NCBI GenBank assembly: GCA_041644975.1
Contig: JBAZQX010000004.1
Coordinates: 9,189 to 73,188, forward strand
Reading direction: 5' to 3'
DNA: 64,000 nt
Source of the DNA: Candidatus Doudnabacteria bacterium
Lineage (GTDB): Bacteria; Patescibacteriota; JAQUNI01
Shown here: positions 2,297 to 25,109 of the stretch, piece after piece
Layout of the letters: every line of letters starts with the position of its first letter
Position numbering within the stretch: position 1 is the first letter of the stretch
Position numbers and translations under genes: made by a program
Notes under the pieces: model-generated
What the model was told of the DNA's origin: nothing
Databases searched by the model: none
What the model saw: the letters and a program-made list of their open reading frames with translations, nothing else

Positions 2297-4087
2297 TTAT
2301 CTCTTCCTTTTATCACGGACGCGGTCGATTTCGGTCAATATTTTTTTCCTTAGGCGGACGGATTGAGGAGTGATTTCCAAATATTCATCATTGTTCACAA
2401 TTTCTAATCCTCTCTCAATGGTTAATTGAAGGGGTGGAGTTAGAATAAGCGCTTCCTCGGCGCCTTTGGAGCGCACATTAGTCAAATGTTTGCCTTTAGT
2501 GGGATTAACCGCCATCTCATCGCCTTTGGCTGTGTTGCCGATAATCATGCCCGCGTAAACTTCAGTGCCCGCGTTAATATAAAGAGCGCCGCGCTCTTGC
2601 AAATTATACAAAGCATAAGCGACAGCGGTACCGCGGGCCATAGAAACCATTGAGCCGACTTTTTTCTTTTTAATATTACCAACAAATAGTTTAAAACCGA
2701 TTACCTGACTATAAAGAATGCCTTCGCCCTTTGTATCAATCATGAAGTCGCCGCGATAACCCAATAATCCTCGAGTGGGAATTTCAAAAATAATGCGGGT
2801 ATAATTTTTTTCTTGGATTAGACTAGTCATTATCCCCTTTCTTCGGGATAATTTCTCAATTACCGTGCCCATAGCAAAATTCGGCACGCTAAGAGTTAAC
2901 TCTTCAAACGGTTCAAGCTTCACCCTATTTTCTTCTTTTATAATGACCTGGGGCTCGCTAACCTGAAGCTCGTGGCCTTCGCGCCGCATATTTTCTAATA
3001 AAATCGCGACATGCAATTCACCGCGGCCATATACTTTAAAATAATCTCCGGGCGAAAAATCAATTTTGAGACCTACATTCACTTCCAGTTCTCTTTCTAA
3101 TCTTTCCCGAATTTGGCGGCTGGTTACTTTGGCGCCCTCTTTGCCCACAAAGGGTGAATTGTTAACTGAAAAATTTAGAGAGATTGTCGGTTCATCAATA
3201 TTAATCGCGGGAAGAGCTTCCTCGTCGGGATCATTACAGACCGTTTCGCCGATATCAATATCAGGAAGACCGGCGAGCATCACAATATCGCCGGCAGAGG
3301 CTTCCGCCACTTCTTTCCTTTCCAAGCCTTGAAAGGTAAAGACTTTAGCAATTTTGCCCGGACGCGCCGCGCTGCCTCCCTTTTTAACATAAACTTTATC
3401 GCCCGCGTGAATAGTGCCTTCATAGACGCGGCAAATCGCCAATCGTCCCATAAAATTATCATAAGCAAGATTAAAAGGCTGGACTTTCAACTTCTTCCCG
3501 CTTAATCCTTCCTTGGAAGCGATCGGGACCTCCTTTAAGATAAGGTCAAGAAGCGGGGTTAAATCTTTGGATTCATCGCTTAGGTTTTTTTTAGCAATGC
3601 CTTCTCTGGCAATCGCGTAGACTAAGGGGAATTCAATTTGTTCTTCATTGGCGCCAAGATCAATAAAAAGTTCAATTAATTTATCATGCACCCAGGCTGA
3701 CCGCGCCGCTTCTTTGTCTATTTTATTAATCACTACGATCGGCTTTAATCCGAGCTCTAAAGATTTTTTAAGAACGAATTTGGTTTGGGGCATAGGACCC
3801 TCCTGCGCGTCCACGACTAGAATGACGGAATCTATGGAACGCAAAACGCGCTCCACCTCGGAACCAAAATCGACATGGCCTGGAGTATCCACGATGTTAA
3901 TTTTAGTTCCCTTGTAAAAAATGGAGGTATTTTTGGAGTAAATTGTAATGCCGCGCTCTTTTTCAAGATCATTGGAGTCCATACTAAATCCTTCTTCCAC
4001 CACACCGGTTTGACGCATTAGGGCATCGGTAAGGCTGGTTTTACCATGATCAACATGGGCAATAATGGCGATATTTCTAATTTCCAT
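2297..4087 (-). CDS. typA: Translational GTPase TypA/BipA
   Basis: 596 aa. N-terminal GTPase IAIIAHVDHGKTSLTDALM, DTPGHVDF, NKIDK, and EF-G-like domains II-V typical of BipA. Confidence 0.9.
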   Translation of the reverse strand: MEIRNIAIIAHVDHGKTSLTDALMRQTGVVEEGFSMDSNDLEKERGITIYSKNTSIFYKGTKINIVDTPGHVDFGSEVERVLRSIDSVILVVDAQEGPMPQTKFVLKKSLELGLKPIVVINKIDKEAARSAWVHDKLIELFIDLGANEEQIEFPLVYAIAREGIAKKNLSDESKDLTPLLDLILKEVPIASKEGLSGKKLKVQPFNLAYDNFMGRLAICRVYEGTIHAGDKVYVKKGGSAARPGKIAKVFTFQGLERKEVAEASAGDIVMLAGLPDIDIGETVCNDPDEEALPAINIDEPTISLNFSVNNSPFVGKEGAKVTSRQIRERLERELEVNVGLKIDFSPGDYFKVYGRGELHVAILLENMRREGHELQVSEPQVIIKEENRVKLEPFEELTLSVPNFAMGTVIEKLSRRKGIMTSLIQEKNYTRIIFEIPTRGLLGYRGDFMIDTKGEGILYSQVIGFKLFVGNIKKKKVGSMVSMARGTAVAYALYNLQERGALYINAGTEVYAGMIIGNTAKGDEMAVNPTKGKHLTNVRSKGAEEALILTPPLQLTIERGLEIVNNDEYLEITPQSVRLRKKILTEIDRVRDKRKR

Positions 4088-7016: not shown

Positions 7017-7276
7017 GTTTTGATAATTATATTACCAAAAAATACAGAAATTGTCAACTTTTTAGATTTGATTTTTGCCTTCGAACCAAACATTTAGGCT
7101 AATCTAAGGATTTTTCAGGAAAACCGTACGGTCTGGGTATCAGGAGGAGTAAAATCTTCGAACCACCAATTTTGGCTTGTTTGAGAGAAAAAACGAGCAT
7201 AAAAAAACACCCGTTTGTCTGGGCTGGGCATCGTGGACAACGTTAGAACTATTATCCAGCAACAAAATGAGTATAT

Positions 7277-7831
7277 TTACATACCTACCTTATGTAACTC
7301 GTAAGCCACAATTGTAGAAAAAGATATTATAGCGACCTGCTCAAGAAAGTTTCTATATAAATCAAGTTCATCAGTTAAGATAGCATAACCTTTGTCCTTA
7401 GCTGTTGCAATAATAGAAATATCCGTAAATCCGAATTGTATGACTTGCTCTCGCTCTTTTAAAAGGGTTCTAAAATGAATATAGTTTTCTTCCCATTTCT
7501 CTATCTCTTGAATAATTCTGGGGAAATATTCATTTAATTTTTTCCCCTTGAATAGTCTTATACGAGAGAGACTGTTTACTTCTGCAAGAATTTGAGGTGT
7601 TATAACTATTCTGCCAATAAATATTTTTAAGATTTTTTCTAATAAATCAAAGTGCTCCTCGGTATAATTTTTGCCATTATCTGTCATCAATGGGCAATAT
7701 TTTAAATAGCCCTTGTCATATATACCAATTAAAAAAAGAAGTAATATATTTGTATCAAGAATTAAACACGCCTCAGGGTGTCTGAAGCGATAATAACCAA
7801 TCTTATTTATATCTGATAAGTATTTAACCAC
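7277..7831 (-). CDS. PIN-domain protein (VapC-like nuclease fold)
   Basis: LILDTNILL (N-terminal Asp), …EVNSL…, FTDISIIATAKDKGYAILTDELDL (C-terminal T-x-D) fit the PIN acidic quartet. Confidence 0.6.
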   Translation of the reverse strand: MVKYLSDINKIGYYRFRHPEACLILDTNILLLFLIGIYDKGYLKYCPLMTDNGKNYTEEHFDLLEKILKIFIGRIVITPQILAEVNSLSRIRLFKGKKLNEYFPRIIQEIEKWEENYIHFRTLLKEREQVIQFGFTDISIIATAKDKGYAILTDELDLYRNFLEQVAIISFSTIVAYELHKVGM

Positions 7832-8149: not shown

Positions 8150-8322
8150 CTCAAGGTTGTGGATAAAGTAACATAGCTTATTTAGTCAATAGAAGTCAAG
8201 GGAAATGGATTTTAGAATTCTTATTTGTCTTTTTGCTTTTTATTTTTTATATTTGTCAAATATATTAGTTTATTTCATTATATCACAGTTTTACCCCACC
8301 CCGCTACTCACTATATCTTGGA

Positions 8323-9340: not shown

Positions 9341-9445
9341 AATTTAGCCAAGCTAGAGCTTTATCTAACGGCTAAGGGAGATAGGTGCCCTGCGCCTGTG
9401 GCTACGGAGCGCTTTACTCCCACCCCCTCCATCTCCCCCTCGGGC

Positions 9446-9632
9446 AGGGGGAGTGTAATTGGTGCTGGGCATCGTGAACGATGTTATAACCATATTTCAA
9501 CGACAAACCGAGTATATTTACATACCAAATTTAAGTCTACAAGCTTAAAATCATTATATCAAATTTTACCCTACCCTGCTACTCACTATTGTTTTGCTCT
9601 TTGTTATTTTACCCCACCCCGCTACTCACTAT
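9446..9632. repeat. Repeat family A copy (longest copy, plus an extra partial TTTTACCCCACCCCGCTACTCACTAT unit)
   Basis: cagggggagtgtaattggtgctgggcatcgtgaacg…gagtatatttacataccaaatttaagtctacaagctta…ttttaccctaccctgctactcactat. Confidence 0.8.
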
Positions 9633-9757
9633 ATTACTAAGGGGGGTAGGGAGTGCCAGATTGAAAATCTAACGAATAAAAGAATTCTTATAGTCGCTCC
9701 GCACAGAAGTGTTTTTATCTTGAAATATATTTTAGTCCGATTTTTAAAATCTCCTCT

Positions 9758-9861
9758 AATGTTAGAACTATATTACAACGACAAAATGAGTATATTTACA
9801 TACCAGATTTAAGTCCACAAGCTTAGTTTATCAGATTTTACCCTACCCCGCTACTCACTAT
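9758..9861. repeat. Repeat family A copy
   Basis: gttagaactatattacaacgacaaaatgagtatatttacataccagatttaagtccacaagcttagtttatcagattttaccctaccccgctactcactat. Confidence 0.8.
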
Positions 9862-9870
9862 TTCTTAAAA

Positions 9871-9901
9871 ACAAAAAGCTCCCATTTCTGGGAGTTTTTT
9901 T
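9871..9901. terminator. Bidirectional intrinsic terminator (ctccca-tttc-tgggag with flanking A-run and T-run)
   Basis: 6-bp GC-rich stem flanked by AAAAA and TTTTTTT. Confidence 0.5.
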
Positions 9902-10244
9902 GTTGGAATAGCAAGCTACTTAAAAGGAAAACAAGATTTCGTCGCTTGTTTCGCCCTTTGTTCGCTCCCTCAAACGAGGCTCTTGGTATGTCCGTAAACC
10001 AATGTTGCTTTTAACCGCACAAGGCGGACTTATTGCACAACACCGTTTTCAGCCAAAAGACCGAAAAATACCAACTCTCACTATTCCAATCAAATTATAT
10101 CAAATTTTTCTTATAGCTTCCAGTAACTCCTGCTGGCGTTTTTGAAGCGAGGCGTCAAAGATAATACGGTATTCAAAGTTCTTATTTGCTTGCTGGAACT
10201 CCTTAAAGCCGATTTCTTTTGCTTACCTCGCAACATAACTTTGA

Positions 10245-11705
10245 TTATTTGAACCAATTTACAATTTTTTTGAAGACCCTACCGATCTTTGCTGGAATGT
10301 CCGAAAAGGTCGATTTTATAAATGACAAAATTTTGTCATTTTTATTTATAGATACGCTACTTTCCTGACTACTGTTACTATTATCTTTATTTTCTTGTTC
10401 CGCACCCTGCTCATCCGTTGTCATTATCGTATTTTGCGAGCTTATGGCATTTTTTTCTTTCTCAACTACCACGGCTTTATCAGTGATTTCCAAACAACTA
10501 TTTCCAACTTCTTTAAAACCTTCATTACATTGCCATACATCTGCAGGGCTATCCGTTACTGGATGTGCGTTTGAGGGTATTTTAATACATTCAGTCTTAT
10601 TCAACGAAAGCGCATATCCCGCGCTACAAGTTTTTCTTTTTTCTGGGCTGTTTTGTTCTTGCGTTATCTTGGTTTGATTATTCGTTACTGGGGGGATCGC
10701 AAAGTCTAGAGGGGGAGAACTGTCTTCCTCTTCCTTTTTTAAAGTGTAATCAGAATCAATTTTTTCTAAACTTGTAATGTCGCAGGTTTCATCGTCATCT
10801 TGCAAAACAATCTTATCCCATCTATCAACATCAAAATCAATTCCTAAATTGACTACAATTCTATCATTTAAATATCTCTTAATAGAGGATGTATAGCATC
10901 CAGAATCATAAGTGATTAGGTAATATTGGTAATTATATTCACTTTTGATAATAGCCTGCCTCTCATCTGTGTTAAGTTCTTTTAAAATAAAATAAACATT
11001 ATTTTGTTTTTCAACACATTGATTATCATCATTTAAAGTATAATTACTATCACATTCACATTTTTTATTTAAAGAATTATAAGAAGAGTGAAGACCATAT
11101 TTAGTGAAGCAAGAGACGCATTCATTGCCACCGCCTATAGTTTTTTGCCTCAGAATATAGCCGTTTCGACACTCACAGACATCAGATAATGAATTGTATG
11201 TCGAATTATACCCAAGTTTATTGTGGCAATATTCGGTTGTATCTATGCATTTTGTTTTTCCAAAAAGGTCTTCACTAAAAATATACCCATAACGACACTT
11301 ACAAGTATCAGACAAAGAATCGTATGTCGAGCCGTATCCATATTTGTCTTTGCATTGCTGTTCTGTAGAAATACATTGTGTTCTTCCTACTGCATCTTTT
11401 CCCAAAGAATATCCATATCCGCACTCACAAGAATCATTTAAAGAGTTATATTTTGAGTTAAAGCCATATTTATCTTTACACATTTGGTCTGCCGATACAC
11501 AGCTAGCATTACCAAGAATATCTTTACCAAAAACATAACCACTCATACATTTACAGCTATCTGTTAAAGAATTATATGTCGCCCATATACCGTATTGAGA
11601 ACACTCACCGTAGCTTTGAGTGATTTTAATGTGAAATAAAAACAAACCTGACAAAATAAGCAAAACAGTTATGGCATAAAATTTATGATTGAATTTGAAA
11701 TCCAC
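10245..11705 (-). CDS. Secreted/surface Cys-rich tandem-repeat protein (about 7 copies of a roughly 44-aa C…YG.NS.YNSLSD.C.C..GY…G…C module) with Ser/Asn-rich C-terminal tail
   Basis: N-terminal TM/signal (FYAITVLLILSGLFLFHI). Repeats such as QCKDKYGYGSTYDSLSDTCKCRYGYIFSEDLFGKTKCIDTTEY. Confidence 0.6.
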   Translation of the reverse strand: MDFKFNHKFYAITVLLILSGLFLFHIKITQSYGECSQYGIWATYNSLTDSCKCMSGYVFGKDILGNASCVSADQMCKDKYGFNSKYNSLNDSCECGYGYSLGKDAVGRTQCISTEQQCKDKYGYGSTYDSLSDTCKCRYGYIFSEDLFGKTKCIDTTEYCHNKLGYNSTYNSLSDVCECRNGYILRQKTIGGGNECVSCFTKYGLHSSYNSLNKKCECDSNYTLNDDNQCVEKQNNVYFILKELNTDERQAIIKSEYNYQYYLITYDSGCYTSSIKRYLNDRIVVNLGIDFDVDRWDKIVLQDDDETCDITSLEKIDSDYTLKKEEEDSSPPLDFAIPPVTNNQTKITQEQNSPEKRKTCSAGYALSLNKTECIKIPSNAHPVTDSPADVWQCNEGFKEVGNSCLEITDKAVVVEKEKNAISSQNTIMTTDEQGAEQENKDNSNSSQESSVSINKNDKILSFIKSTFSDIPAKIGRVFKKIVNWFK

Positions 11706-11743: not shown

Positions 11744-11995
11744 CTAATAACGCAACTTATAACTTTTATAGGGGCTTGTATATCCTTTTGCGCCTGTGTA
11801 TGGGTTGTAATTTCCTTTCGTTGACCAGTTATCTAATCTGCTTCTGTTGGGGCTAGTCCTATAATATGGCTGGACATATGTGCCAGTGCTTTTTTTGTAA
11901 TAACTCCTAACTCTGATTGTGCGTGCTTCGGCAGAAAAGACAAACAAGCCAAAAACGAAAGACAGAATAATTGATAAAACAATAAGTTTTTTCAT
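11744..11995 (-). CDS. Small secreted Tyr/Lys-rich protein with signal peptide
   Basis: MKKLIVLSIILSFVFGLFVFSAEA signal, then Y-rich 60 aa. Confidence 0.5.
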   Translation of the reverse strand: MKKLIVLSIILSFVFGLFVFSAEARTIRVRSYYKKSTGTYVQPYYRTSPNRSRLDNWSTKGNYNPYTGAKGYTSPYKSYKLRY

Positions 11996-12011: not shown

Positions 12012-12362
12012 TTATTTTATAGGATATTTTTTAAAACATTCATCTTTGATTTGTTGATAGGCTTTCTTTAAATCATCTGCTCTATTTGAAGCCAATAAAC
12101 AACTACCATCTGTGCCGATTTCCCTATTATCTACTTTGCAATATTCATTCCATTGGTCGCGAGATGTAGTTTTAGCGTCTTCTAGACAAGCCTCAAGCAT
12201 TGATTTATTTAATTCTTTATCCACTTTTTCCTCAATTCGTATTAAGTCTTCTTTATTAGGAATATATATAACATAATGATAAAAAATAGCAAAACCTATC
12301 AATAATACGGCGGCTGCTAAAGTAGCTTTGAACCAATTAATCTTTTTTATTTTTTCTTTCAT
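12012..12362 (-). CDS. Small membrane-anchored protein; paralog of 8396-8794 (start taken at MKEKIKKINWF)
   Basis: Same TM + PN(K/Q) + coiled segment + Cys-containing C-terminal architecture. Confidence 0.5.
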   Translation of the reverse strand: MKEKIKKINWFKATLAAAVLLIGFAIFYHYVIYIPNKEDLIRIEEKVDKELNKSMLEACLEDAKTTSRDQWNEYCKVDNREIGTDGSCLLASNRADDLKKAYQQIKDECFKKYPIK

Positions 12363-12366: not shown

Positions 12367-13308
12367 TTAAGGCAAAGTTTCACACACAACGCCGTCTTTA
12401 TCTCGGTCTAGTTTGTGCACATCTCCCCTGCCTTGTGTTATGCAGTAATTATAACAGGCTTGAGCCTGTTTTTGTGTTGTGAAATCAGGGCAATTATAGG
12501 TATTACTACTGCAATTGCAAACTGTTTCCGTTGTAGTAGTGGTGGGTGCAGGCGTAGTTTGAATTGTGGGGCTAGTTTGGGCTTGGTTTGCTGAATTATC
12601 AGCTACGCAAGCATCATCAGCCCATAATCCTCGCTTATTCTTCTCTGCTTCTTTTTGAGCTTCTTTAAATTCTGATTGGTATTTATAGGGTGTGGAGTAA
12701 GTATATTCGTAAGCGTAGCCTTCGGCAATCATTAGTTTATTAAAGTTTGTCCCGTCTTCTAAAAAGACATATCTCAATAATCTACCATATTTGTCTCTTT
12801 CTCCTTGGGTTGGGTCGTTTTCTAAAATTACACTTTTGCCATTCAAAACTTCCTTGGCTTTATCGGAGGCTTCTTTACCAAAACATTCAACGGGTTTGCG
12901 AGGGTCAACGGTTTCGGGGGTGTTAATACCTATAAGCCTTAGGGTCTCTTTTGTCCCGTCCATATCAACTGTTACCGTATCCCCGTCAACAACTTTAATC
13001 ACCTTGTATAATTTCTGGGCTGATTGCCCCTCTGTTGCAGAATCTACACTTGGGGAGGTCTGTTGTGGTTCTGTCTGGCTGGCTTCATTTTGAGGCTCTT
13101 GGGTTGCGGATTCAACGGCTTGGGCTAGGGGCTGGTCTTGCTTTTCCTCCTGCGGCTCATTTATTGTCTGTTCTTGATTGGCGGTATCCTCAATCTTGGT
13201 TTCGCCAGTTTCTTTAGGATGTTGGCTAGTTTGAGTAGTCTCTGCACATCCTGCCAAAACAAAAAAACCTAGTAGGAGAATTGTCCATTTAACAAATTTG
13301 ATATTCAT
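12367..13308 (-). CDS. Thermonuclease (staphylococcal-nuclease/SNase fold) lipoprotein with C-terminal Excalibur Ca-binding domain
   Basis: Lipobox VLAGC. SNase motifs DGDTV, LRLIGINTPE, YGRLLRYV. C-terminal CPDFTTQKQAQACYNYC…LDRDKDGVVCE is the Excalibur signature. Thr/Gln-rich linkers. Confidence 0.8.
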   Translation of the reverse strand: MNIKFVKWTILLLGFFVLAGCAETTQTSQHPKETGETKIEDTANQEQTINEPQEEKQDQPLAQAVESATQEPQNEASQTEPQQTSPSVDSATEGQSAQKLYKVIKVVDGDTVTVDMDGTKETLRLIGINTPETVDPRKPVECFGKEASDKAKEVLNGKSVILENDPTQGERDKYGRLLRYVFLEDGTNFNKLMIAEGYAYEYTYSTPYKYQSEFKEAQKEAEKNKRGLWADDACVADNSANQAQTSPTIQTTPAPTTTTTETVCNCSSNTYNCPDFTTQKQAQACYNYCITQGRGDVHKLDRDKDGVVCETLP

Positions 13309-13373
13309 ATTCTTTTGGAATCTACATATTTTACCCCACCCCTCATTCACTTATATTTTTAGAAACAGGATTT

Positions 13374-15269
13374 TTATTTAACTTTTTCAGGAGTTTTAAA
13401 AATAAGCATTGTTGTTCCTATTTTTTTATAGAAATAATCTTTAATCCTATTGTATTTTTTGTTTTCGGGTAATTTATCATTAAAAACATTGTTTTGATAT
13501 TCAAAAATAGAAACGACGATATATGAATCAGTCGGAATCCATCCCCATTCAATATTGTAAGGCTCATATCCCTTCCCCAGATAATATTGCAATGGAACAT
13601 TAGTAAAAATATGAGCATAAATTTTATTTATATTATTATCCTTTACCCATTCTGCTAGTCTTTTTACATCCTGACCGCCCCAGTCATAATTTGAATCCGT
13701 TGCAATTTTATAACCATTATTAGTTCCTCCGGCAAAAGCGTTGTAATAACTCAAATAATATGGAAAAAAAACTATAGTTGATACTAAAATGACAATTGCC
13801 AAAAGAAAGAATAAAGATTTTGTTTTCAGGACGCGGAACAATTTTAAGTTCCAATGTAAATCAATCCCCCTCGCCGTTAATAGTATAACGGAAATAATTA
13901 CGGGCATAATATGTCTCAATCCAATTTGTAAGTTTGAAGATAGAGTAATTACCATATATAAATACGAGAATAACAAGAGCAAAAAAGATAATGGATTTTT
14001 CAAGAATGTTGATAATCTGGTTTTAATGTCTATTTTAGAAGATATAAATTTCCAAGTTGCTAAAGCTAGAGAAACGAAAATTAAGATAAGGGCACTAATG
14101 GACAATTTCGTTAAAAATAGAATCGGAAAATATAATGCTCCGGCTCCTTCTGAACCATAAACTCTACCCATAAAATATGTTTTTTGTAAGGCAGAGGACA
14201 TTCTTCCCCCAACCATTATTACGCCCAGTATATATTCTGCTATCCCTTTTGTTAGCGGATTGCTAATTACAAAACTTGATAATATTTCTACCCCTTGAGA
14301 TGGTAGTTCTTGCGGATATGTCTGCACTATTTGGGTTATCATTTCATCATTAGTCATATTGCGAACGTGAAGAGAATAAAAAATGGCAACAATAAAGAAT
14401 ACGGAAAGAATAAACGAAGAATAACGAATTAAAAATTTACCCACTTCTTTTCTGCTCTTTTGAACGAAAATTATAAAAATTAATCCCCCTAAAAACATTG
14501 CTGGAATAATAAGGACTGAAGAAAACTTTGCTAATAGCGCCAGCGAGGTGAACAACACCGAGAATAGAAACCAAGCTAAAATTTTACCTTTTTGTGCATA
14601 GTTTTTAAGATAAATTGCAAAACATACAATAGCTATTATTTGAAGTAGGGACGACATAAAGTCCATTATAACCAGAGAACCCATTGAAATAACAAATTGA
14701 GAAGAGACCATTAAAAAAATCCCTATCAATGAGGTTCTTTTGCTCCATATTTTTGTTAAGAAAATATAAAGCAGAAAAATAAAAAATCCATTAAACACAA
14801 TAACTGCTAATCTAGACCAAAAGGCAATATTGTCAGGATCATTATTTGGATTAAACAAAAAAAGTCTCCCCCAATCCCATTGGGCATTTCCAACCTCCAG
14901 CTTTTTCGGCATTATGTAGCTTTTAAAGGGGTAATCCCATCTTGTAAATTCTGAACCGAGATTAATTTTGTCTGAAATCTCCGGAAAAGTAGGTTTAATA
15001 AGCAACAGGGGTAAGCCGGCAATATCTTTAACAATAGGAGGATGTTCAGGATTTATGAAGTATCTACCCGTTTTTAGATAATAATATCCACTTGGAATAT
15101 GTGATAATTCATCGGATGTGATTGCGTCTCCTGTATATTTTAAATTTTTCCAATGAAATCCCTCAACGGAAAAAAGGGCAATTAAAATAAAGAAGGTTGT
15201 TAAAAGTATTGCTAATATGAAATTTGTTTTATTTTTAAGAAATGATTTTGGCTCTAATTTTTTAATCAT
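13374..15269 (-). CDS. GT-C membrane glycosyltransferase, family 39-like (PMT/ArnT-type); paralog of 43779-45530
   Basis: More than 10 TM helices. Conserved SHIPSGYYYLK…NPEHPPIVKDIAGLPLL and C-terminal SNYDWGGQDVKRLAEWV shared with the 43779 paralog. Confidence 0.6.
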   Translation of the reverse strand: MIKKLEPKSFLKNKTNFILAILLTTFFILIALFSVEGFHWKNLKYTGDAITSDELSHIPSGYYYLKTGRYFINPEHPPIVKDIAGLPLLLIKPTFPEISDKINLGSEFTRWDYPFKSYIMPKKLEVGNAQWDWGRLFLFNPNNDPDNIAFWSRLAVIVFNGFFIFLLYIFLTKIWSKRTSLIGIFLMVSSQFVISMGSLVIMDFMSSLLQIIAIVCFAIYLKNYAQKGKILAWFLFSVLFTSLALLAKFSSVLIIPAMFLGGLIFIIFVQKSRKEVGKFLIRYSSFILSVFFIVAIFYSLHVRNMTNDEMITQIVQTYPQELPSQGVEILSSFVISNPLTKGIAEYILGVIMVGGRMSSALQKTYFMGRVYGSEGAGALYFPILFLTKLSISALILIFVSLALATWKFISSKIDIKTRLSTFLKNPLSFLLLLFSYLYMVITLSSNLQIGLRHIMPVIISVILLTARGIDLHWNLKLFRVLKTKSLFFLLAIVILVSTIVFFPYYLSYYNAFAGGTNNGYKIATDSNYDWGGQDVKRLAEWVKDNNINKIYAHIFTNVPLQYYLGKGYEPYNIEWGWIPTDSYIVVSIFEYQNNVFNDKLPENKKYNRIKDYFYKKIGTTMLIFKTPEKVK

Positions 15270-15520
15270 AAAATTAATTTCAGTAGATAATTATTATTTT
15301 GTAAAATGCAATCTTTTCATATTTTTAAATTATTTTTCAAGCATCACTATTTAACCAGAAACACGAAGCTCCCCGCCAGCGATAGCCTTGCGGCTACCCA
15401 TATCCCTTTCGAGATATGACCGACTAAGGTGCTCTGAACGAGGAGCTTGATGCCTTAGTCGGTTTTATGCCATACCTCATAGCAAAACTATCAGGGTTAG
15501 GCAATTTAATTTTCAAAATA

Positions 15521-15745
15521 CTATGTTATGTGCTTTCTCTCTAACAACCTCTTAATATCATCTTTTCTATAACGCCTTATCTTTTTTTCACCAATCCTGA
15601 TTGCAACCAAAATACCTTTTTTGTCCCACTGGCGCAAGGTGTTAGGATGACATTTTAAAATATCACAAGTCTCTTTGAGGGTAAGAAGTTCTGGCATATC
15701 TTGTCTGTTTTTTACTACTTTTACCATTGATTTTTTACTTAACAT
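15521..15745 (-). CDS. Helix-turn-helix DNA-binding protein, excisionase/MerR-like (Xis-type)
   Basis: LLTLKETCDILKCHPNTLRQWDKKGILVAIRIGEKKIRRY is the HTH_17/Xis pattern. Confidence 0.65.
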   Translation of the reverse strand: MLSKKSMVKVVKNRQDMPELLTLKETCDILKCHPNTLRQWDKKGILVAIRIGEKKIRRYRKDDIKRLLERKHIT

Positions 15746-18060: not shown

Positions 18061-20295
18061 ATGCAAGAATTACAAACCATTACAATTAAAGAGTATCTGG
18101 CACGCAAAGGCGTTGCCTTTCGTGAGAGCGGCAAAGAGCTTATCACCCACTGCCTTTTTAACGGCTGTGATGAGAATAGCAAAACTAACGAAGCTCATCT
18201 TTATTTTGACGCAGAAACAGGGCAATTCAACTGCAAAAAGTGCGGCGAAAAAGGCAACCTCATAACCCTTGCTAAACATCTTGGCGATAGAATAAATGAT
18301 ATTGCCCTTAATCCAATAGCTCCCATTAAAAATTCACAAAAATCCACGAAATTTGACGCAGAGCTGGTTGAAACCTGTCATCAAGCACTTTCAGTCAATA
18401 TCCGCCAGTATTTGAACGCACGGGGCATCACAGACCCCATTATAGACACATACAAGCTTGGTTGGGGCAAATTCTACGGCAAATGGTGGATTACTATTCC
18501 TATTCAGGATATTGATGGAAATTTTGTTTTTCTCAAATTACGGCAAGACCCAGAAGATACAAATAATCCAGATAAATATAAATTTTATCCTGCTGGGAGT
18601 AGCGCAACTATCTATGGATGGAAAATGCTGAAAAATAACAAAGGCACCATTGTAATCTGCGAAGGTGAGTTTGACCAATTAGTGTTGTTACAAAATGCTA
18701 TTCCCGCTATCACTTCCACGGCTGGCGTTGGAACTTTCAAAAAAGAGTGGATTGAATACTTGAAAAAATTGGAAAAAATTTATATTTGCTTTGATAAAGA
18801 TGAAGCTGGTGAGAAAGGAGCAGAGCGGCTCATTAAACTTTTATCTGAACATTTATCTGATACTGCTATTTACAAAATTACGCTCCCAGAACGAATGGTT
18901 GACGGCAAAGATATAACCGATTATTTCCTAAGATACAACGGCAATGTGGATGAATTGATTTACAAATTAGCAAAAGAATATCCAGAGCGAATTGATACCT
19001 CGCAGTTCAAGCCGCTATCCTCGCAGGATTTGGTTGAAATACTTGGATTGACGATAAAGCAGGATGATGAAAATAAAATCGTAACCTTCCTTTGCGAGTT
19101 ATCGGCATATACGGAAAACGCTCAATTCAACATCAGCTTTAACGCACCATCATCTACGGGTAAAAGCTATATCCCCACCGAGATTGCTCGGTTATTCCCA
19201 GAAGAAGATGTAATGGAGCTTGCCTATTGCAGTCCTACGGCATTTTTTCACGATGTCGGCGAATGGAACAAAGATATGAAAGGATATGTCGTGGATTTGT
19301 CTCGCAAAATTTTGATTTTTCTTGACCAACCACATACTTTACTTCTTCAACATCTCCGTCCGTTGCTCTCGCACGATAAAAAGGAGATTTCGGTGAAAAT
19401 TACTGATAAGACGCAGAAGTTTGGATTGAAGACCAAAAATATCCTACTCAAAGGATACCCCGCAGTGATTTTCTGCACGGCAGGATTGTTGATTAACGAG
19501 CAGGAAGCAACACGATTTCTCCTGTTAAGCCCAGAGATTAACCAAGAGAAAATCAGGCAAGGGATTTTGGAGAGCATTAAAAAAGAAGCAGACGCCGAGA
19601 GCTATAAGGGCTGGCTGGATGAAAACCCCGAACGAAAGCTACTTAAAGAGCGGATACGGGCAATAAAACTGGAAGGTATCCGTGAAATAAAAATTGCAAG
19701 TTATCAAAAGGTTGTTGATAGATTTTTGAGCGAAAATAAGGTGCTCAAGCCCCGACACCAGCGAGACATTAAACGCCTTGTCTCAATTATAAAATCCTTT
19801 GCCTTAATCAATCTCTGGTGGCGGGAAAAAAACGGCACAACCATTACCGCCAATGAGGATGACATTGAACAGGCATTTAAGATTTGGGACGCTATCTGCA
19901 TAAGCCAAGAGCTTAGTCTGCCACCGTATATCTACAATCTCTACCAAGAAGTTATCTTGAAGGCGTGGAATGACAAAAATAGCAACAGAAGCGAGGCAAC
20001 GGGACTGCTCGGCTTATCACGGCAGGAACTACTGCAAAAGCACTTTGAGGTCTATGGGCGGATGTTGGACACAAACCAGCTACGCCAGCAGATTTTGCCA
20101 ATGCTGGAGATGGCGGGGCTTATCGTGCAAGAGGCAGACCAAAACGACAAACGAAAAATGTTGATTTCCCCTACCGCACTAACCACTAAATCTCCGAACC
20201 AAAACAATAGTGAGAACGGGGGTGGGGTGAGCACCAACGAGGAAAACAATAGTGAAACGCAGGGTGGGGTAACTCCAAACTTAGGAATTTTCTGA
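18061..20295 (+). CDS. DNA primase (CHC2 zinc finger + TOPRIM) fused to a C-terminal P-loop NTPase-like domain (phage/plasmid primase, P4-alpha-like architecture)
   Basis: CHC2 ribbon HCLFNGCDENSKTNEAHLYFDAETGQFNCKKCGEKG. TOPRIM GTIVICEGEFDQ … CFDKDEAGEKGAERL. Walker-A-like NAPSSTGKSY in the C-terminal half. Confidence 0.75.
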   Translation: MQELQTITIKEYLARKGVAFRESGKELITHCLFNGCDENSKTNEAHLYFDAETGQFNCKKCGEKGNLITLAKHLGDRINDIALNPIAPIKNSQKSTKFDAELVETCHQALSVNIRQYLNARGITDPIIDTYKLGWGKFYGKWWITIPIQDIDGNFVFLKLRQDPEDTNNPDKYKFYPAGSSATIYGWKMLKNNKGTIVICEGEFDQLVLLQNAIPAITSTAGVGTFKKEWIEYLKKLEKIYICFDKDEAGEKGAERLIKLLSEHLSDTAIYKITLPERMVDGKDITDYFLRYNGNVDELIYKLAKEYPERIDTSQFKPLSSQDLVEILGLTIKQDDENKIVTFLCELSAYTENAQFNISFNAPSSTGKSYIPTEIARLFPEEDVMELAYCSPTAFFHDVGEWNKDMKGYVVDLSRKILIFLDQPHTLLLQHLRPLLSHDKKEISVKITDKTQKFGLKTKNILLKGYPAVIFCTAGLLINEQEATRFLLLSPEINQEKIRQGILESIKKEADAESYKGWLDENPERKLLKERIRAIKLEGIREIKIASYQKVVDRFLSENKVLKPRHQRDIKRLVSIIKSFALINLWWREKNGTTITANEDDIEQAFKIWDAICISQELSLPPYIYNLYQEVILKAWNDKNSNRSEATGLLGLSRQELLQKHFEVYGRMLDTNQLRQQILPMLEMAGLIVQEADQNDKRKMLISPTALTTKSPNQNNSENGGGVSTNEENNSETQGGVTPNLGIF

Positions 20296-21704: not shown

Positions 21705-23402
21705 ATGACAAAAATTACACAAATTACACAAAAAAACATAAAAAATAAATATTTTCTTTATGCCCGCAAGTCATCAGAAAGCGAAGATAGACAGGTGCAG
21801 TCCATTGATGACCAAGTAAATCGGCTTAAACAACTTGCCAAAGATTTAAGTTTGGATATTAAAAAAATCTATACCGAATCAAAAACAGCCAAGAAGCCAA
21901 ACAACCGCCCCCTATTTGATGAAATGATACAGAGAATTGAAAATGGCGAAGCGGATGGAATTTTATGCTGGCACTTAAACAGATTGACACGCAACCCAAT
22001 TGATAGCGGTAAATTAAGTTGGCTTTTGCAACAAGGAGTAATCAAATCCATTCAAACCATAGAACGACAATATCTACCCGATGACAATGTTCTACTATTT
22101 AATGTTGAGACTGGTCAGGCTAATCAGTATCTTTTGGATTTAAGCCGTGATACTAAACGGGGACTTCTCAAAAAACTGAATACGGGCTGGCAAAATGGCA
22201 TCGCCCCATTGGGTTATCTGAATGACAAAGAAAACAAAACTATTATCAAAGACCCAGAGCGTTTTAATCTCGTCCGCAAAATGTGGGATTTAATGCTCAC
22301 GGGCAATTATACGCCGCCAAAGATTTTAGATATTGCTAATAAGGAGTGGGGTTTTAGAACACGAAAATTCAAAAGGATTGGCGGCTGTCCTCTGTCCAGA
22401 AGCGGGATTTATAAAATTTTTACAAGTTTGTTCTATGCGGGGGTTATTGAAAATAAAGGGGTGCAATATGAGGGGAAACACGAGCCGATAATTACCCTTG
22501 AAGAATACGACCGAGTGCAAATGTTGCTTGGGAGAAAAGGCAAGCCAAGACCCAAAAAGCACAAATTTGCCTTTACTGGATTTATTCGGTGCGGGGAGTG
22601 CGGCTGTCTTTATACTGCTGAAACAAAACAAAAACTAATCAAAAGCACTGGCGAAATCAAAAAATATACTTATTATCATTGCACCAGAAAAAAAAGAGAT
22701 ATTAACTGCACCCAAAGGAAATTTATTAGAGAAAACAAATTAGAACTCCAAATTGAAAAAGAATTAGAAAAATACACTATTCTCCCAGAATTTTTACATT
22801 GGGCTTTAGAGGGTCTGAATAAAAAAAATGACACCGAAATTGAAGACCGAACAAAAATTTATGAAATGCAACATAAAACTTTAACTGAAACTCAAAAAGG
22901 ATTGGACGAGCTTACTAAAATGAGATACCGCCAGTTAATTGATGATGAAACTTTTGTCAAAGAGCGTAATGAATTACAAACCAAAATCACCCAGCTTAAA
23001 GAAAAATTAAGAGAAACCGAAAGCCGAGCCGAGCGATGGCTGGAGCTAACAGAGAAGACTTTTAATTTTGCAACATATGCTAGAAAAGCATTTTTGATAG
23101 GAGGGTTAGAACTAAAGAAAGAAATACTGATGACATTAGGGAAAAATGCGATAATAAAGGACAAAAAGCTCTATATTGAGCCGAATGAATGGCTACAACC
23201 AATCAAAAATGGCTATCCTGCCTTAGAAAAAGAATATCTAAGGTTAGAACCAGCCAAAATGCGCTTAAATAAAACAAAAACAGAGGCTTTAACCTCTGTT
23301 CGTGCACGGTGGCTGGGGAGGCAGGATTCGAACCTGCGAATGGCGGCTTCAAAGGCCGCTGCCTTACCACTTGGCTACTCCCCAAAATGGAATCAGGAAT
23401 AA
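21705..23402 (+). CDS. Large serine recombinase (resolvase/invertase catalytic domain + recombinase domain + zinc ribbon + coiled coil)
   Basis: YARKSS…DDQ catalytic region, GILCWHLNRLTR, CGECGCLYTAE…YYHCTRKK zinc ribbon. The last roughly 30 codons are antisense translation of tRNA-Gln. Confidence 0.85.
   Translation: MTKITQITQKNIKNKYFLYARKSSESEDRQVQSIDDQVNRLKQLAKDLSLDIKKIYTESKTAKKPNNRPLFDEMIQRIENGEADGILCWHLNRLTRNPIDSGKLSWLLQQGVIKSIQTIERQYLPDDNVLLFNVETGQANQYLLDLSRDTKRGLLKKLNTGWQNGIAPLGYLNDKENKTIIKDPERFNLVRKMWDLMLTGNYTPPKILDIANKEWGFRTRKFKRIGGCPLSRSGIYKIFTSLFYAGVIENKGVQYEGKHEPIITLEEYDRVQMLLGRKGKPRPKKHKFAFTGFIRCGECGCLYTAETKQKLIKSTGEIKKYTYYHCTRKKRDINCTQRKFIRENKLELQIEKELEKYTILPEFLHWALEGLNKKNDTEIEDRTKIYEMQHKTLTETQKGLDELTKMRYRQLIDDETFVKERNELQTKITQLKEKLRETESRAERWLELTEKTFNFATYARKAFLIGGLELKKEILMTLGKNAIIKDKKLYIEPNEWLQPIKNGYPALEKEYLRLEPAKMRLNKTKTEALTSVRARWLGRQDSNLRMAASKAAALPLGYSPKWNQE
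23310..23384 (-). tRNA. tRNA-Gln (anticodon UUG), CCA encoded
   Basis: rc = TGGGGAGTAGCCAAGTGGTAAGGCAGCGGCCTTTGAAGCCGCCATTCGCAGGTTCGAATCCTGCCTCCCCAGCCA. 7-bp acceptor with U1-A72, anticodon stem CGGCC/GGCCG, loop CUUUGAA, T-arm GCAGG-TTCGAAT-CCTGC. Confidence 0.85.
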
Positions 23403-23471
23403 GGAATTATGAATTAGGAAGATAAAATGAAATTCATTATTCATGATTCACAATTCCTGATTCATAATTCC

Positions 23472-25109
23472 CTATTTCACAATCTCCCCTCCCAAAACCT
23501 CCAACGCTTCTCTAGTTAAATTATTATTCTGCCGCAATTCCACCTTTTCGCATTGAATCTGCCATTTGCCACCTAAGATTTGGTCTAAAACCCCTTCCAC
23601 TATTTTTTTATTGCGGGCTTGAGAAACCATATCTTTATGGAAATCCCGCGGGAAACCCAAAACCAAGGAGCCATCGCGAAAAGCGACTGGCTGGCAGAGT
23701 TTCAAGAAAGCGCATAGAGAATAATTTAAAGGTTCCACCGCCTTTAATACCTCGCTCCATTTACCTACTGCCTGTTCTAAATTCATTGTCGGCTTTTGAT
23801 ATTCGGGCAACCCCGTTAGATGTCTACTATCTAACGGGGCAAAGGAAGGCATTGATGGCTCTTCTTCTTTTTCTCCCAGTTTCGGGCTTTGCGTTTTCTC
23901 CTCGGTCTGCCCGCCTAAATTTGCCCGCCTAAATTTGCTTTCAAATTTTGGCGGGTTTGCTGACAAACTTGGGTGGGTCTGCCGCGCTTCCGCTACTTTG
24001 CCCATTGCTTCACTATATTCTATAATGGCTAACTCCAAAGACAATTGAGGAATTAAAGCCGCGTCCAAACTATTCTTCGCAGCCATAAAAAGCCTTACTA
24101 AATAGGCTAAACTTTTCAGAGAGAAATTTTGGGCGCGAGCGACTAATTCTTCTTTTTGGGCAGCAGAAAAAGAAAGCCCGGCGTGATCCAATAAAGCGGG
24201 CTGAACCTTAGCCAACATCATTCTGCGGAGATAATCAACGAGCTCGTCTGTAAAATTAAATAGGTCTTGACCATTGGCGACGATCTCGTTCACTTTGCGA
24301 ATAGCTTGCGCGCTGTCGCAAGAAGCCAGCATATTCACGAAATCGGATATTAAAGACCAATCGACCGTGCCTGAAAAATCAGCCACTTTACTCAACTTGA
24401 GCTCTTTTTTGGGCCAAGAAAGAATCTGACCTAAAATACCTTCGGCATCCCGCTCCCCGCCGTCCGCTTTGATGGCGATCAATCTCAAAATCTCGGGGTT
24501 TAAAGCGCGCTTCTCCTCCCTTAAAATCCGCGCTAAGCGGTGTTCAATTTCAGCGACTGTTAATTTTTTAAAGTCAAATCTCTGACAGCGTGAAAGAATC
24601 GTCTCTGGCACTTCGTGCACCTCTGTCGTCGCTAAAATGAAAAGAGTACGCGGAGGCGGCTCTTCCAAGGTTTTTAAAAGAGCGTTAAAGGCTTCCCGTG
24701 TCAACATATGCGCTTCATCAATAATAAAAACTTTAAAACTGTCTCTTTGGGGCGCGAAACGCACATTCTCACGGAGAGCGCGAATCTCATTGATGCCGCG
24801 GTTGGAGGCGGCGTCAATCTCAATTAAATCCAATGACCTGCCAACCGTAATCTCCTGACAACTCACACAACGGTTGCAGGGTTCCACTTTCCCGAGCCTG
24901 CGCTCGCGCACGCTTTTTTTGTTCTGGCAATTAATCGCTTTAGCGAGAATGCGCGCCACGGTGGTCTTGCCAATGCCGCGGGGACCCGCGAAAATATAAG
25001 CATGGGCAATTTTGCCCAAGCTTAATTCATTCTTTAAAGTTTGGATAATGGCAGTCTGTCCCTCCACTTCAGAAAATTTTTGCGGTCTGTATTTACGATA
25101 TAAAGTCAT
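23472..25109 (-). CDS. dnaX: DNA polymerase III subunit gamma/tau
   Basis: YRPQKFSEVEGQ…AYIFAGPRGIGKTT (Walker A), zinc module C..C..C, SRCQRF. Confidence 0.9.
   Translation of the reverse strand: MTLYRKYRPQKFSEVEGQTAIIQTLKNELSLGKIAHAYIFAGPRGIGKTTVARILAKAINCQNKKSVRERRLGKVEPCNRCVSCQEITVGRSLDLIEIDAASNRGINEIRALRENVRFAPQRDSFKVFIIDEAHMLTREAFNALLKTLEEPPPRTLFILATTEVHEVPETILSRCQRFDFKKLTVAEIEHRLARILREEKRALNPEILRLIAIKADGGERDAEGILGQILSWPKKELKLSKVADFSGTVDWSLISDFVNMLASCDSAQAIRKVNEIVANGQDLFNFTDELVDYLRRMMLAKVQPALLDHAGLSFSAAQKEELVARAQNFSLKSLAYLVRLFMAAKNSLDAALIPQLSLELAIIEYSEAMGKVAEARQTHPSLSANPPKFESKFRRANLGGQTEEKTQSPKLGEKEEEPSMPSFAPLDSRHLTGLPEYQKPTMNLEQAVGKWSEVLKAVEPLNYSLCAFLKLCQPVAFRDGSLVLGFPRDFHKDMVSQARNKKIVEGVLDQILGGKWQIQCEKVELRQNNNLTREALEVLGGEIVK

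What the first reader, a model, noticed from the sequence alone, without database searches (positions are those of the whole stretch)
12367..13308. Lipoprotein thermonuclease with Excalibur domain: extracellular DNA scavenging?
Lipobox LAGC, SNase catalytic motifs and C-terminal Excalibur (DxDxDG…CE) Ca-binding module, joined by Thr/Gln-rich linkers. Fits a nucleotide-auxotrophic, surface-attached lifestyle, or DNA-uptake/biofilm roles. It sits inside the accessory island next to the Cys-rich adhesin-like protein.
Basis: partly seen in the sequence, partly recalled or inferred. Interest (0 to 1): 0.55.

Follow-up and report, generated by a model that had tools for sequence, protein, structure and literature searches.

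The report
Surface-tethered YokF-type nuclease on mobile island
This gene encodes an ordinary membrane-anchored, calcium-dependent DNA/RNA-cutting enzyme of a type that is very common in tiny Patescibacteria (CPR) cells and closely resembles Bacillus prophage nuclease YokF; the only slightly unusual point is that it rides on an integrated mobile element.

Summary
Window 12367-13308 (minus strand) is a real 313-aa gene. It encodes a signal peptide with the lipobox LAGC (Cys21), an acidic Gln/Glu/Thr linker, a staphylococcal-nuclease (SNase) domain, a Thr-rich linker and a C-terminal Excalibur Ca-binding domain (DRDKDGVVCE).

SNase D21, R35, E43, R87, Y85, Y113 and Y115 are invariant in 120 homologs. 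Only the Ca ligand D40 is Asn here. That is the majority state of this clade (88 N, 33 D), not a decay.

The family is huge: 2,051 clusters at 50% identity with E<=1e-30. The few named members are annotated [quoted passage not shown].

The closest characterised relative is B. subtilis SPbeta-prophage YokF, which has the same lipoprotein + SNase + Excalibur architecture (BLASTP E=1e-28 across both domains).

The gene lies in a low-GC island of about 19 kb between BipA and tRNA-Gln/DnaX. The island carries a large serine integrase, an excisionase-like HTH protein and a primase.

The most likely function is a cell-surface Ca-dependent nuclease that degrades extracellular nucleic acids for salvage. 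This idea is already published for Patescibacteria. A YokF-like role as a DNA-transfer gatekeeper for the element is the main rival.

Verdict: new member of a known kind, low interest.

The parts
13329..13342 (-). GGGGTGGGGTAAAA box. It begins 35 nt and ends 21 nt upstream of the nuclease ATG and is followed by TATGTAGATT (extended -10-like). This is a candidate promoter or operator shared with other genes of the island.
   Evidence: Six copies in the window against 0.48 expected. A longer 25-mer version occurs 4 times against 0 expected. All copies are oriented toward the downstream gene. Function is inferred, not shown.
12367..13308 (-). Nuclease CDS (313 aa + stop): lipoprotein SNase-Excalibur.
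13246..13308 (-). Signal peptide with lipobox L-A-G-C (residues 1-21; Cys21 is the predicted lipidated residue).
   Evidence: Read directly from the sequence. It passes a PS51257-like rule. AF2 predicts a helix at 6-17. The closest relatives P0002-P0004, P0007, P0036 and P0055 keep L[AST]GC.
13015..13245 (-). Linker 1 (residues 22-98): acidic, Q/E/T-rich and predicted disordered. Probably a spacer from the membrane.
   Evidence: pI 4.05 and net charge -13. Block-mean pLDDT is 47-52 for residues 21-90, rising to 69 for residues 91-100. Not conserved among homologs.
12604..13014 (-). SNase (thermonuclease) domain, residues 99-235. Catalytic and Ca-site residues (SNase numbering in brackets): D110 (D21), R124 (R35), N129 (D40), T130 (T41), E132 (E43), K173/Y174 (K84/Y85), R176 (R87), Y202/Y204 (Y113/Y115). 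Invariant pair C142/C234.
   Evidence: Pfam E=3e-27. PDB SNase E about 1e-20. Residue mapping. Invariant columns. pLDDT above 93 over most of the domain and Foldseek TM 0.85.
12523..12603 (-). Linker 2 (residues 236-262): Thr-rich and disordered.
   Evidence: 10 Thr in 27 residues. pLDDT 38-44. It is equivalent to the unstructured 216-255 region of YokF (preprint 10.1101/2025.10.26.684598).
12370..12522 (-). Excalibur Ca-binding domain (residues 263-313). Ca loop D301-E310 (DRDKDGVVCE). Six Cys, of which C266, C273, C289 and C309 are invariant in the family.
   Evidence: Pfam PF05901 scores 24.3 bits against a cut-off of 22. 105 of 120 homologs carry a strict DxDxDGxxCE. Invariant columns. The best PDB hit of the C-terminal profile is 5J8T, the CbpL Excalibur domain, E=0.024. 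pLDDT 76-90.
12012..12362 (-). Downstream gene: 116-aa membrane-anchored protein with 4 Cys. It starts 4 nt after the nuclease stop and is probably co-transcribed.
   Evidence: No family hit.
11744..11995 (-). Downstream gene: 83-aa secreted Tyr/Arg-rich protein. A weak homolog lies downstream of the 78%-identical nuclease in L090.
   Evidence: BLASTP 4e-9 to L090 2011-2352.
10245..11705 (-).
   Evidence: The only family hit is a sub-threshold cEGF match.
13374..15269 (-). Upstream gene: 631-aa polytopic membrane protein, a weak PMT_2 (GT-C glycosyltransferase-like) match.
   Evidence: E=3.7e-4, below the Pfam cut-off.
15521..15745 (-). HTH_17/MerR-type excisionase-like DNA-binding protein of the island.
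   Evidence: phrog_66, excisionase/regulator, 2.4e-9.
18061..20295 (+). Toprim-domain DNA primase of the island.
   Evidence: phrog_47, DNA primase, 2.3e-30.
21705..23402 (+). Large serine recombinase (integrase) at the right edge of the island. Its 3' end overlaps tRNA-Gln (23310-23384, minus strand).
   Evidence: (phrog_95, integrase, 3.6e-72).

Best explanation
The gene encodes a Sec-exported, lipid-anchored nuclease with the YokF architecture: lipobox, disordered acidic spacer, SNase domain, Thr-rich linker, Excalibur domain.

Proposed mechanism. After export and lipidation at Cys21, the SNase domain is held tens of residues away from the membrane. There it uses Ca2+ (ligands D110, N129 and the T130 carbonyl) together with R124, E132 and R176 to hydrolyse DNA and RNA non-specifically into 3'-phospho mono- and oligonucleotides. 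The disulfide-rich Excalibur domain binds a further Ca2+. By analogy with YokF, it modulates or restrains the nuclease until the protein is outside the cell.

Most likely physiological outcome: degradation of extracellular or host-derived nucleic acid at the surface of a biosynthetically poor Patescibacteria cell, feeding nucleotide and phosphate salvage. The gene is cargo of an integrative element and is probably co-transcribed with other secreted or membrane proteins.

Shown here: the domains, residue conservation, fold, architecture match to YokF and island context. Inferred: export and lipidation, Ca dependence, substrate, the role of the Excalibur domain and the physiological purpose.
For: Domain calls are above the curated cut-offs. 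PDB SNase matches at E about 1e-20. The AF2 model has pLDDT above 93 over most of the SNase domain, and Foldseek TM to SNase structures is 0.85.

D21, R35, E43, R87, Y85, Y113 and Y115 equivalents are invariant in 121 sequences and in the 64-sequence alignment.

Invariant Cys pairs (C142/C234; C266, C273, C289, C309) fit an oxidising extracytoplasmic location.

The N-terminus passes a lipobox rule. Most homologs instead carry an N-terminal TM anchor, so surface tethering is a property of the whole family.

SPbeta YokF has the same architecture (SNase 91-199, Excalibur 260-295, annotated as a putative lipoprotein) and aligns across both domains at E=1e-28. YokF is an experimentally shown membrane-localised nuclease (preprint 10.1101/2025.10.26.684598; Sakamoto 2001 as cited in PMC3929857).

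PMC11495043 reports SNc-type extracellular nucleases in 15 of 28 Patescibacteria MAGs and proposes nucleobase salvage. A lipoprotein SNase (Hvo_1477) is needed for growth on eDNA in Haloferax (PMC3929857).

The host is a Patescibacteria-like genome: the best DnaX matches are Falkowbacteria, Uhrbacteria and Patescibacteria at 38-40% identity.
Against: No activity data exist.

The Ca ligand D40 is Asn. This could change metal affinity or preference. YokF D98H/T99P, at the same site, is inactive, although that is a much harsher change.

No Lgt or LspA is visible in the 64 kb window, so lipidation is unverified. Only 10 of 120 homologs have a lipobox.

No nucleotidase, nucleoside transporter or ComEC lies nearby.

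The gene sits on a mobile element, and homologs tend to sit among RM, TA and helicase genes. That fits a DNA-conflict role at least as well as nutrition.
Confidence: 0.6

Rival explanations
1. YokF-like gatekeeper. The integrative element carries the membrane nuclease to destroy DNA at the cell envelope. The target would be incoming DNA (transformation, competing elements or phage) or outgoing DNA passing through cell-cell contacts. This benefits the element rather than feeding the cell.
For: It has the same three-part architecture as YokF, which is prophage-borne and blocks nanotube-mediated plasmid exchange. In that work the C-terminal domain (= the Excalibur region) was required, since YncB, which lacks it, was inactive (preprint 10.1101/2025.10.26.684598).

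The gene lies inside an island with a serine integrase, an excisionase-like HTH protein and a primase.

Homologs recur next to helicase/MTES_1575, DUF2779, type I RM, AbiEii and TA genes.

The SNase domain matches the PADLOC candidate-defence model 'SNc+LTD' at 1e-47.
Against: The PADLOC match is only domain-level homology. The YokF mechanism depends on FlhA and nanotubes, which are not known in this organism. In the preprint most YokF homologs are chromosomal, not on elements. The sample of 11 contexts is small, and accessory genes cluster together anyway. The family's abundance (more than 2,000 50%-clusters at E<=1e-30) in organisms that rely on DNA uptake argues for a housekeeping-like use.
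Confidence: 0.25
2. Matrix or prey processing. The surface nuclease remodels eDNA in biofilm or attachment matrix, or digests nucleic acids released from the host cell that the epibiont attacks. It would act together with the neighbouring secreted, Cys-rich and membrane proteins as a surface-interaction module.
For: The probable operon contains three further secreted or membrane proteins, including a 486-aa Cys-rich repeat protein. Staphylococcal Nuc modulates biofilm (cited in PMC3929857). The closest relative (L090) is also followed by small secreted or membrane proteins.
Against: The neighbours are not conserved with the nuclease across homologs. Nothing here shows adhesion or a biofilm. 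This reading overlaps with the salvage explanation and is hard to separate from it.
Confidence: 0.1
3. Pseudo-nuclease. Because the Ca ligand D40 is replaced by Asn, the protein has lost catalysis and serves as a surface DNA-binding protein.
For: N129 replaces SNase D40. As recalled from memory, the PROSITE TNASE_1 pattern requires Asp at this position.
Against: All residues that perform catalysis (R35, E43, R87) and the other Ca ligands (D21, T41) are invariant. N and D alternate freely at this one site within a tightly conserved family (88 N, 33 D). This is the pattern of a tolerated ligand swap, not of decay. Asn can still ligate Ca2+ through its carbonyl oxygen (general chemistry; my own knowledge).
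Confidence: 0.05

Closest known systems
Bacillus subtilis SPbeta prophage nuclease YokF (NP_046558; NC_001884 5582-6472)
   Same: Lipoprotein signal, low-complexity linker, SNase domain, unstructured Thr/Ser-rich linker and C-terminal Excalibur domain, in the same order and at similar size (296 vs 313 aa). BLASTP E=1e-28 with 33% identity over 225 residues spanning both domains. Both are carried on an integrated mobile element.
   Different: YokF has Asp at the SNase-D40 position (RYLLIDTPET); this protein has Asn. YokF's Excalibur domain has the basic 2-Cys form; this one has 6 Cys. The host is a Patescibacteria-like organism, not a Firmicute. The element uses a serine integrase plus a primase and has no recognisable virion genes. 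The FlhA/nanotube partner described for YokF is not known here.
Staphylococcus aureus thermonuclease Nuc (SNase; e.g. PDB 1STN, 1SNC)
   Same: Same fold (Foldseek TM 0.85, about 34% identity). Same catalytic R35/E43/R87 and the same D21/T41 Ca ligands.
   Different: Nuc is secreted, single-domain and has no Excalibur domain or lipobox. D40 is Asn here. This protein has an invariant Cys pair (C142/C234) that SNase lacks. It scores below the NCBIfam NucI equivalog cut-off (129.5 vs 250 bits).
Patescibacteria 'thermonuclease family protein' clade (e.g. P0014, P0033)
   Same: 47-81% identity. Same SNase + Excalibur core, with N at the D40 site in most members. Extracellular SNc nucleases in Patescibacteria MAGs are already described in PMC11495043.
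   Different: Most members are tethered by an N-terminal TM helix. Only about 8% (10 of 120), including this one, use a lipobox. This copy is on an integrase-bearing island.
Haloferax volcanii Hvo_1477
   Same: Lipobox + SNase surface nuclease, linked experimentally to growth on extracellular DNA (PMC3929857).
   Different: Its C-terminal domain is a lamin-tail domain, not Excalibur. It is archaeal.
Excalibur domain of S. pneumoniae CbpL (PDB 5J8T)
   Same: Same DxDxDGxxCE Ca loop and the same conserved Cys pair. It is the best PDB hit of the C-terminal profile. The domain folds only with Ca2+ (PMC5137146).
   Different: The match is weak (E=0.024) and limited to the loop. CbpL has no nuclease domain.

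Membership tests
SNase / thermonuclease (Pfam PF00565) | Profile match above the curated threshold, and the OB-fold SNase structure. | tested here: met
   95.6 bits against a cut-off of 21. PDB SNase E about 1e-20. AF2 pLDDT above 93 over most of the domain, and Foldseek TMt 0.85.
SNase / thermonuclease (Pfam PF00565) | Catalytic Arg35, Glu43 and Arg87, plus the substrate-binding Tyr85, Tyr113 and Tyr115. | tested here: met
   R124, E132, R176, Y174, Y202 and Y204 are present and invariant in 121 sequences.
SNase / thermonuclease (Pfam PF00565) | Ca2+ ligands Asp21, Asp40 and Thr41. | tested here: inconclusive
   D110 and T130 are present. The Asp40 equivalent is Asn129, which is the majority state of the clade (88 N, 33 D). 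The effect on metal binding cannot be judged by sequence.
SNase / thermonuclease (Pfam PF00565) | Ca2+-dependent hydrolysis of DNA and RNA. | not testable with these tools
   Needs an enzyme assay.
Excalibur (Pfam PF05901) | DxDxDGxxCE calcium loop, and a profile score above the threshold. | tested here: met
   DRDKDGVVCE at 301-310. 24.3 bits against a cut-off of 22. 105 of 120 homologs have the strict motif.
Excalibur (Pfam PF05901) | Two absolutely conserved Cys forming a disulfide (PMC5137146). | tested here: met
   C273 and C309 (plus C266 and C289) are invariant. Disulfide formation itself is inferred.
Bacterial lipoprotein | Signal peptide with a lipobox [LVI][ASTVI][GAS]C and a basic n-region. 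| tested here: met
   K4 and K7, a hydrophobic core, and L-A-G-C21. It passes a PS51257-like rule (the pattern was written from memory).
Bacterial lipoprotein | The genome encodes Lgt and LspA for processing. | not testable with these tools
   None among the ORFs scanned in the 64 kb window. The rest of the genome is not available.
YokF family (signal peptide + TNase + C-terminal 'TNM' domain; preprint 10.1101/2025.10.26.684598) | All three modules present, and homology spanning TNase and the C-terminal domain. | tested here: met
   (E=1e-28; alignment runs from residue 105 to 310).
YokF family (signal peptide + TNase + C-terminal 'TNM' domain; preprint 10.1101/2025.10.26.684598) | Autoinhibition by the C-terminal domain, its cleavage, and blocking of DNA transfer. 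| not testable with these tools
   Needs experiments.
NCBIfam equivalogs NucI (NF047694) / EcnA (NF047969) | Score above the equivalog cut-off. | tested here: not met
   129.5 bits against 250, and 87.5 bits against 180. It is related to both but is not an equivalog of either.
Integrative mobile element (context of the gene) | Integrase, an excision/replication module, flanking core genes and a compositional shift. | tested here: met
   Serine integrase, HTH_17 and primase. BipA on one side and tRNA-Gln/DnaX on the other. GC is 0.33-0.35 against 0.40-0.46.
Integrative mobile element (context of the gene) | Defined att sites, an empty site in relatives, or evidence of excision. | tested here: inconclusive
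   No tRNA-derived direct repeat at the far end; serine integrases need none. No genome close enough exists for an empty-site comparison (best DnaX identity is 40%).

The most novel reading that the evidence does not exclude
The YokF-type 'gatekeeper' nuclease family has so far been reported only from Gram-positive bacteria. It may in fact be massively expanded in Patescibacteria. In this case it would be deployed by an integrative element to police DNA traffic at the envelope of an epibiotic, naturally DNA-importing cell: excluding rival elements or phage, or controlling DNA exchange across the symbiont-host contact. The Cys-rich Excalibur domain would act as an export/Ca-gated safety catch.
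Probability: 0.15. Interest if true: 0.55.

Novelty: new member of a known kind. Interest (0 to 1): 0.25.

Why it matters
It matters little by itself. This is a well-conserved member of a very large, already annotated family, and its proposed salvage role in Patescibacteria is already in the literature.

It has modest value in three respects. (1) It links the abundant Patescibacteria SNase-Excalibur proteins to the experimentally studied YokF architecture. That gives concrete hypotheses to test: Excalibur as an autoinhibitor, and envelope DNA gatekeeping. (2) It documents a clade-wide Asp-to-Asn swap at a Ca ligand, which could alter metal dependence. (3) It shows such a nuclease as cargo of a serine-integrase element in a CPR genome. 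Mobile elements in these organisms are still poorly described.

Tried and rejected
1. Viral origin. IMG/VR scans with the nuclease, the island primase and the 535-aa island protein found no relatives. PHROGs found no virion genes among the ten island proteins tested. I therefore do not call the island a prophage.

2. att sites. No direct repeat links the tRNA-Gln end to the far end of the island.

3. Empty-site comparison. The closest genomes in GTDB share only 38-40% DnaX identity, so synteny could not be used.

4. Conserved operon. Eleven contexts of homologs share no fixed partner gene. The neighbours of the 78%-identical homolog are not homologous, apart from one small Tyr-rich protein.

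5. Lipoprotein-processing genes. None was found in the window.

6. Defence-system membership. The PADLOC hit 'SNc+LTD' is domain-level only. No partner defence proteins were found in the island.

7. Pseudo-enzyme idea. Rejected on residue conservation.

8. Upstream GTG start at 13350. Rejected, because the shared upstream motif lies between it and ATG 13308, and the independent gene call uses the ATG.

9. My first protein alignment (A1) had lost Met1 through a coordinate slip. It was redone as A2.

Full report
**Observation.** The finding's coordinates delimit a minus-strand ORF with ATG at 13308 and TAA at 12367-12369, encoding 313 aa. A gene caller on a public contig reports the same 313-aa product. 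That contig (ENA ERZ27249422 k141_195079) is 99.995% identical to the window over the 20.9 kb compared.

The N-terminus MNIKFVKWTILLLGFFVLAGC has basic residues, a hydrophobic core and L-A-G-C ending at Cys21. It passes a PROSITE-style lipobox rule.

Pfam places an SNase domain at residues 122-231 (E=3e-27) and an Excalibur domain at 271-310 (24.3 bits, above the 22-bit cut-off). The Excalibur signature DxDxDGxxCE is DRDKDGVVCE at 301-310.

Residues 22-98 are Gln/Glu/Thr-rich and strongly acidic. Residues 236-262 contain 10 Thr in 27 residues.

**Is it an active nuclease?** Staphylococcal nuclease structures match at E about 1e-20 over residues 102-233. An AlphaFold2 model built on 64 homologs gives pLDDT above 93 over most of the SNase domain (dipping to 56 at 131-140), 76-90 for the Excalibur region and below 50 for much of both linkers. 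Foldseek returns SNase structures at TM 0.85.

I mapped SNase residues through an alignment of SNase, the query and 120 homologs. D21, R35, E43, R87, Y85, Y113 and Y115 are invariant. T41 and K84 are nearly so (confirmed).

There is one deviation. The Ca ligand D40 is Asn129. Among the 121 non-SNase sequences this site is N in 88 and D in 33. It is a tolerated, clade-typical alternation inside an otherwise rigidly conserved active site, not a sign of decay. Whether it shifts metal affinity is unknown.

Six Cys are invariant across the family: C142/C234 in the SNase domain, and C266, C273, C289 and C309 in the Excalibur region. This fits an oxidising, extracytoplasmic location.

**How common is it?** The word-indexed search returned more than 7,700 hits. 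The top 120 share 45-78% identity apart from the 100%-identical self cluster, and almost all have the same SNase + Excalibur core. The few named ones are annotated [quoted passage not shown] or "micrococcal nuclease".

An exhaustive HMMER pass over 1.84 billion 50%-identity representatives found 34,718 relatives at E<=1e-3 and 2,051 at E<=1e-30.

105 of 120 homologs carry the strict Excalibur motif. Only 10 of 120 have a lipobox; the rest begin with a TM helix. Surface tethering is thus the rule, and lipid anchoring is the variant used by this subclade.

**Closest characterised relative.** A tblastn search against phage genomes hit yokF of Bacillus phage SPbeta. YokF is 296 aa, annotated "putative lipoprotein", with SNase at 91-199 and Excalibur at 260-295. 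It aligns with the query from the SNase domain through the Ca loop (E=1e-28, 33% identity).

YokF is an experimentally characterised membrane nuclease (Sakamoto et al. 2001, cited in PMC3929857). A 2025 preprint (10.1101/2025.10.26.684598) reports three things about it:
- It blocks nanotube-mediated plasmid exchange.
- Its C-terminal domain (residues 256-296, i.e. the Excalibur region) restrains the nuclease and is cleaved off and secreted.
- The paralog YncB, which lacks that domain, is inactive in that assay.

The Excalibur fold itself was solved for CbpL (PDB 5J8T) and folds only with Ca2+ (PMC5137146). 5J8T is the top, though weak, PDB hit of a profile of the C-terminal region here.

**Organism and island.** The rest of the window is core chromosome: DnaX, CorA, CysRS, Dus, DnaB, RecR, SerRS, LysRS, PBP2, MreBC, ProRS, FolD and GreA. 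The best DnaX matches among 185,579 species genomes reach only 38-40% identity and are Falkowbacteria, Uhrbacteria and "Patescibacteria group" MAGs. This is a divergent CPR lineage.

Between BipA (2297-4087) and tRNA-Gln/DnaX (23310-25109) lies an accessory block. Its GC is 0.33-0.35 over 6-18 kb, against 0.40-0.46 elsewhere. It carries:
- a large serine recombinase (21705-23402; phrog integrase, 3.6e-72);
- a Toprim primase (18061-20295);
- DUF5659;
- an HTH_17 excisionase-like protein (15521-15745).

On the other strand there is a run of secreted or membrane proteins with no family assignment. These are a PMT_2-like polytopic protein, the nuclease, a 116-aa and an 83-aa protein, and the 486-aa Cys-rich repeat protein. 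The nuclease and the three genes after it are separated by 4, 16 and 38 nt, so an operon is likely.

A box GGGGTGGGGTAAAA followed by a -10-like element ends 21 nt upstream of the nuclease ATG. It recurs upstream of other island genes: 6 copies against 0.48 expected.

I found no virion genes among the proteins tested, no relatives in IMG/VR and no att repeats. The block is therefore best called an integrative element of unknown type. "Accessory island" is supported.

**Contexts of homologs.** Eleven loci show no conserved partner gene. Many lie among variable, conflict-type genes:
- AAA_11/AAA_12-MTES_1575 helicases and DUF2779 (L002, L004, L093);
- a type I RM specificity subunit (L088);
- PemK and SocA (L005);
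- AbiEii and HepT/MNT (L094);
- a tyrosine integrase (L093).

The sample is small and accessory genes co-localise anyway, so I treat this only as a hint.

**Interpretation.** With high confidence (about 0.85), the biochemical identity is an exported, membrane-tethered, Ca-dependent SNase-type nuclease with YokF architecture.

The physiological role is inferred. The leading reading is degradation of extracellular nucleic acid for salvage. It is favoured by three points. The family is enormously abundant in biosynthetically poor Patescibacteria. PMC11495043 found that 15 of 28 Patescibacteria MAGs encode SNc-type secreted nucleases and proposed nucleobase salvage. A lipoprotein SNase supports growth on eDNA in Haloferax (PMC3929857).

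The main rival is a YokF-like gatekeeper or exclusion function serving the element. It is favoured by the element context and the exact architectural match. It cannot be excluded.

The pseudo-nuclease idea is rejected on conservation.

**Novelty.** This is a new member of a known kind. The points that go slightly beyond the literature I could read are these. YokF-type three-module nucleases are abundant outside the Gram-positive families surveyed in the preprint. This clade mostly uses Asn at the D40 Ca-ligand site. This copy is cargo of a serine-integrase element in a CPR genome.

Interest is low (0.25).

Noticed in passing
window 15381-15503 (-): Full-length match to Rfam LOOT RNA (RF03000): 88.9 bits against a gathering score of 46.4, E=1.6e-15. 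It lies inside the island, between the excisionase-like gene and the PMT_2-like gene, on the same strand as the nuclease block.
   Followed up: partly
window 8289-8313, 9564-9588, 9607-9631, 9836-9860, 13329-13342, 1447-1460 (all -); 20201-20228 and 20243-20270 (+); also L087:~5322 and L090:~2419: Repeated upstream box (A)ATAGTGAGTAGC-GGGGTGGGGTAAAA, usually followed 2-3 nt later by TGATATAAT (extended -10). It is always oriented toward the downstream gene. It is also present on contigs that carry the closest nuclease homologs. It may be a lineage- or element-specific promoter or operator.
   Followed up: partly
window 9341-10244; repeats at 9481-9547, 9759-9825, 7240-7306 and ~1380-1446: A 900-nt ORF-free stretch holds three copies of the box above and two copies of a ~67-nt conserved unit (…GGACTTAAATCTGGTATGTAAATATACTC…). 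The unit itself looks like a second sigma-70-type promoter or a small transcript. Further copies lie upstream of the 253-aa gene and about 430 nt upstream of the Rrf2 regulator gene (561-1022), outside the island. There is no Rfam match.
   Followed up: partly
window 21705-23402 (+) and 23310-23384 (-): The serine integrase ORF runs antisense through the entire tRNA-Gln gene. Its last ~30 residues are the antisense translation of the tRNA, beyond the region homologous to integrases (which ends at about residue 503). The attachment site may lie in the 3' end of int, so that integration changed the C-terminus.
   Followed up: partly
window 13205 (codon 35 of the nuclease): The only difference between the window and the public ENA contig over 20,942 nt is a non-synonymous G/A change (Gly35 vs Asp35) in the disordered linker of the nuclease.
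   Followed up: yes
window 23389-23420 = 53561-53592 (exact, 32 nt); related copies at 25111-25154, 53674-53692 and 58513-58544: An intergenic repeat rich in GGAATTATGAATTA is scattered between core genes. Its function is unknown.
   Followed up: no
L002 6919-10293; L004 1469-5264; L093 502-7004: In three unrelated contigs the nuclease homolog is adjacent to a large AAA_11/AAA_12 (or AAA_13) helicase with an MTES_1575 endonuclease-like domain, and/or to a DUF2779 protein. In L093 the DUF2779 stop overlaps the nuclease start. This may be a recurrent module.
   Followed up: no
window 13374-15269 (-) with nuclease residues 236-262: A PMT_2-like (protein O-mannosyltransferase-like GT-C) membrane protein is encoded immediately upstream of a lipoprotein with Thr-rich linkers. 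O-glycosylation of the linkers is conceivable. The Pfam match is sub-threshold (21.2 vs 26.1 bits). Two stronger PMT_2 paralogs lie in the core region (41976-43595, 43779-45530).
   Followed up: no
protein P0215: A 1,286-aa protein in the representative library matches the query in 13 separate stretches; the best-scoring one covers query residues 246-313 (linker 2 + Excalibur). It may therefore contain a long array of Excalibur-like repeats.
   Followed up: no
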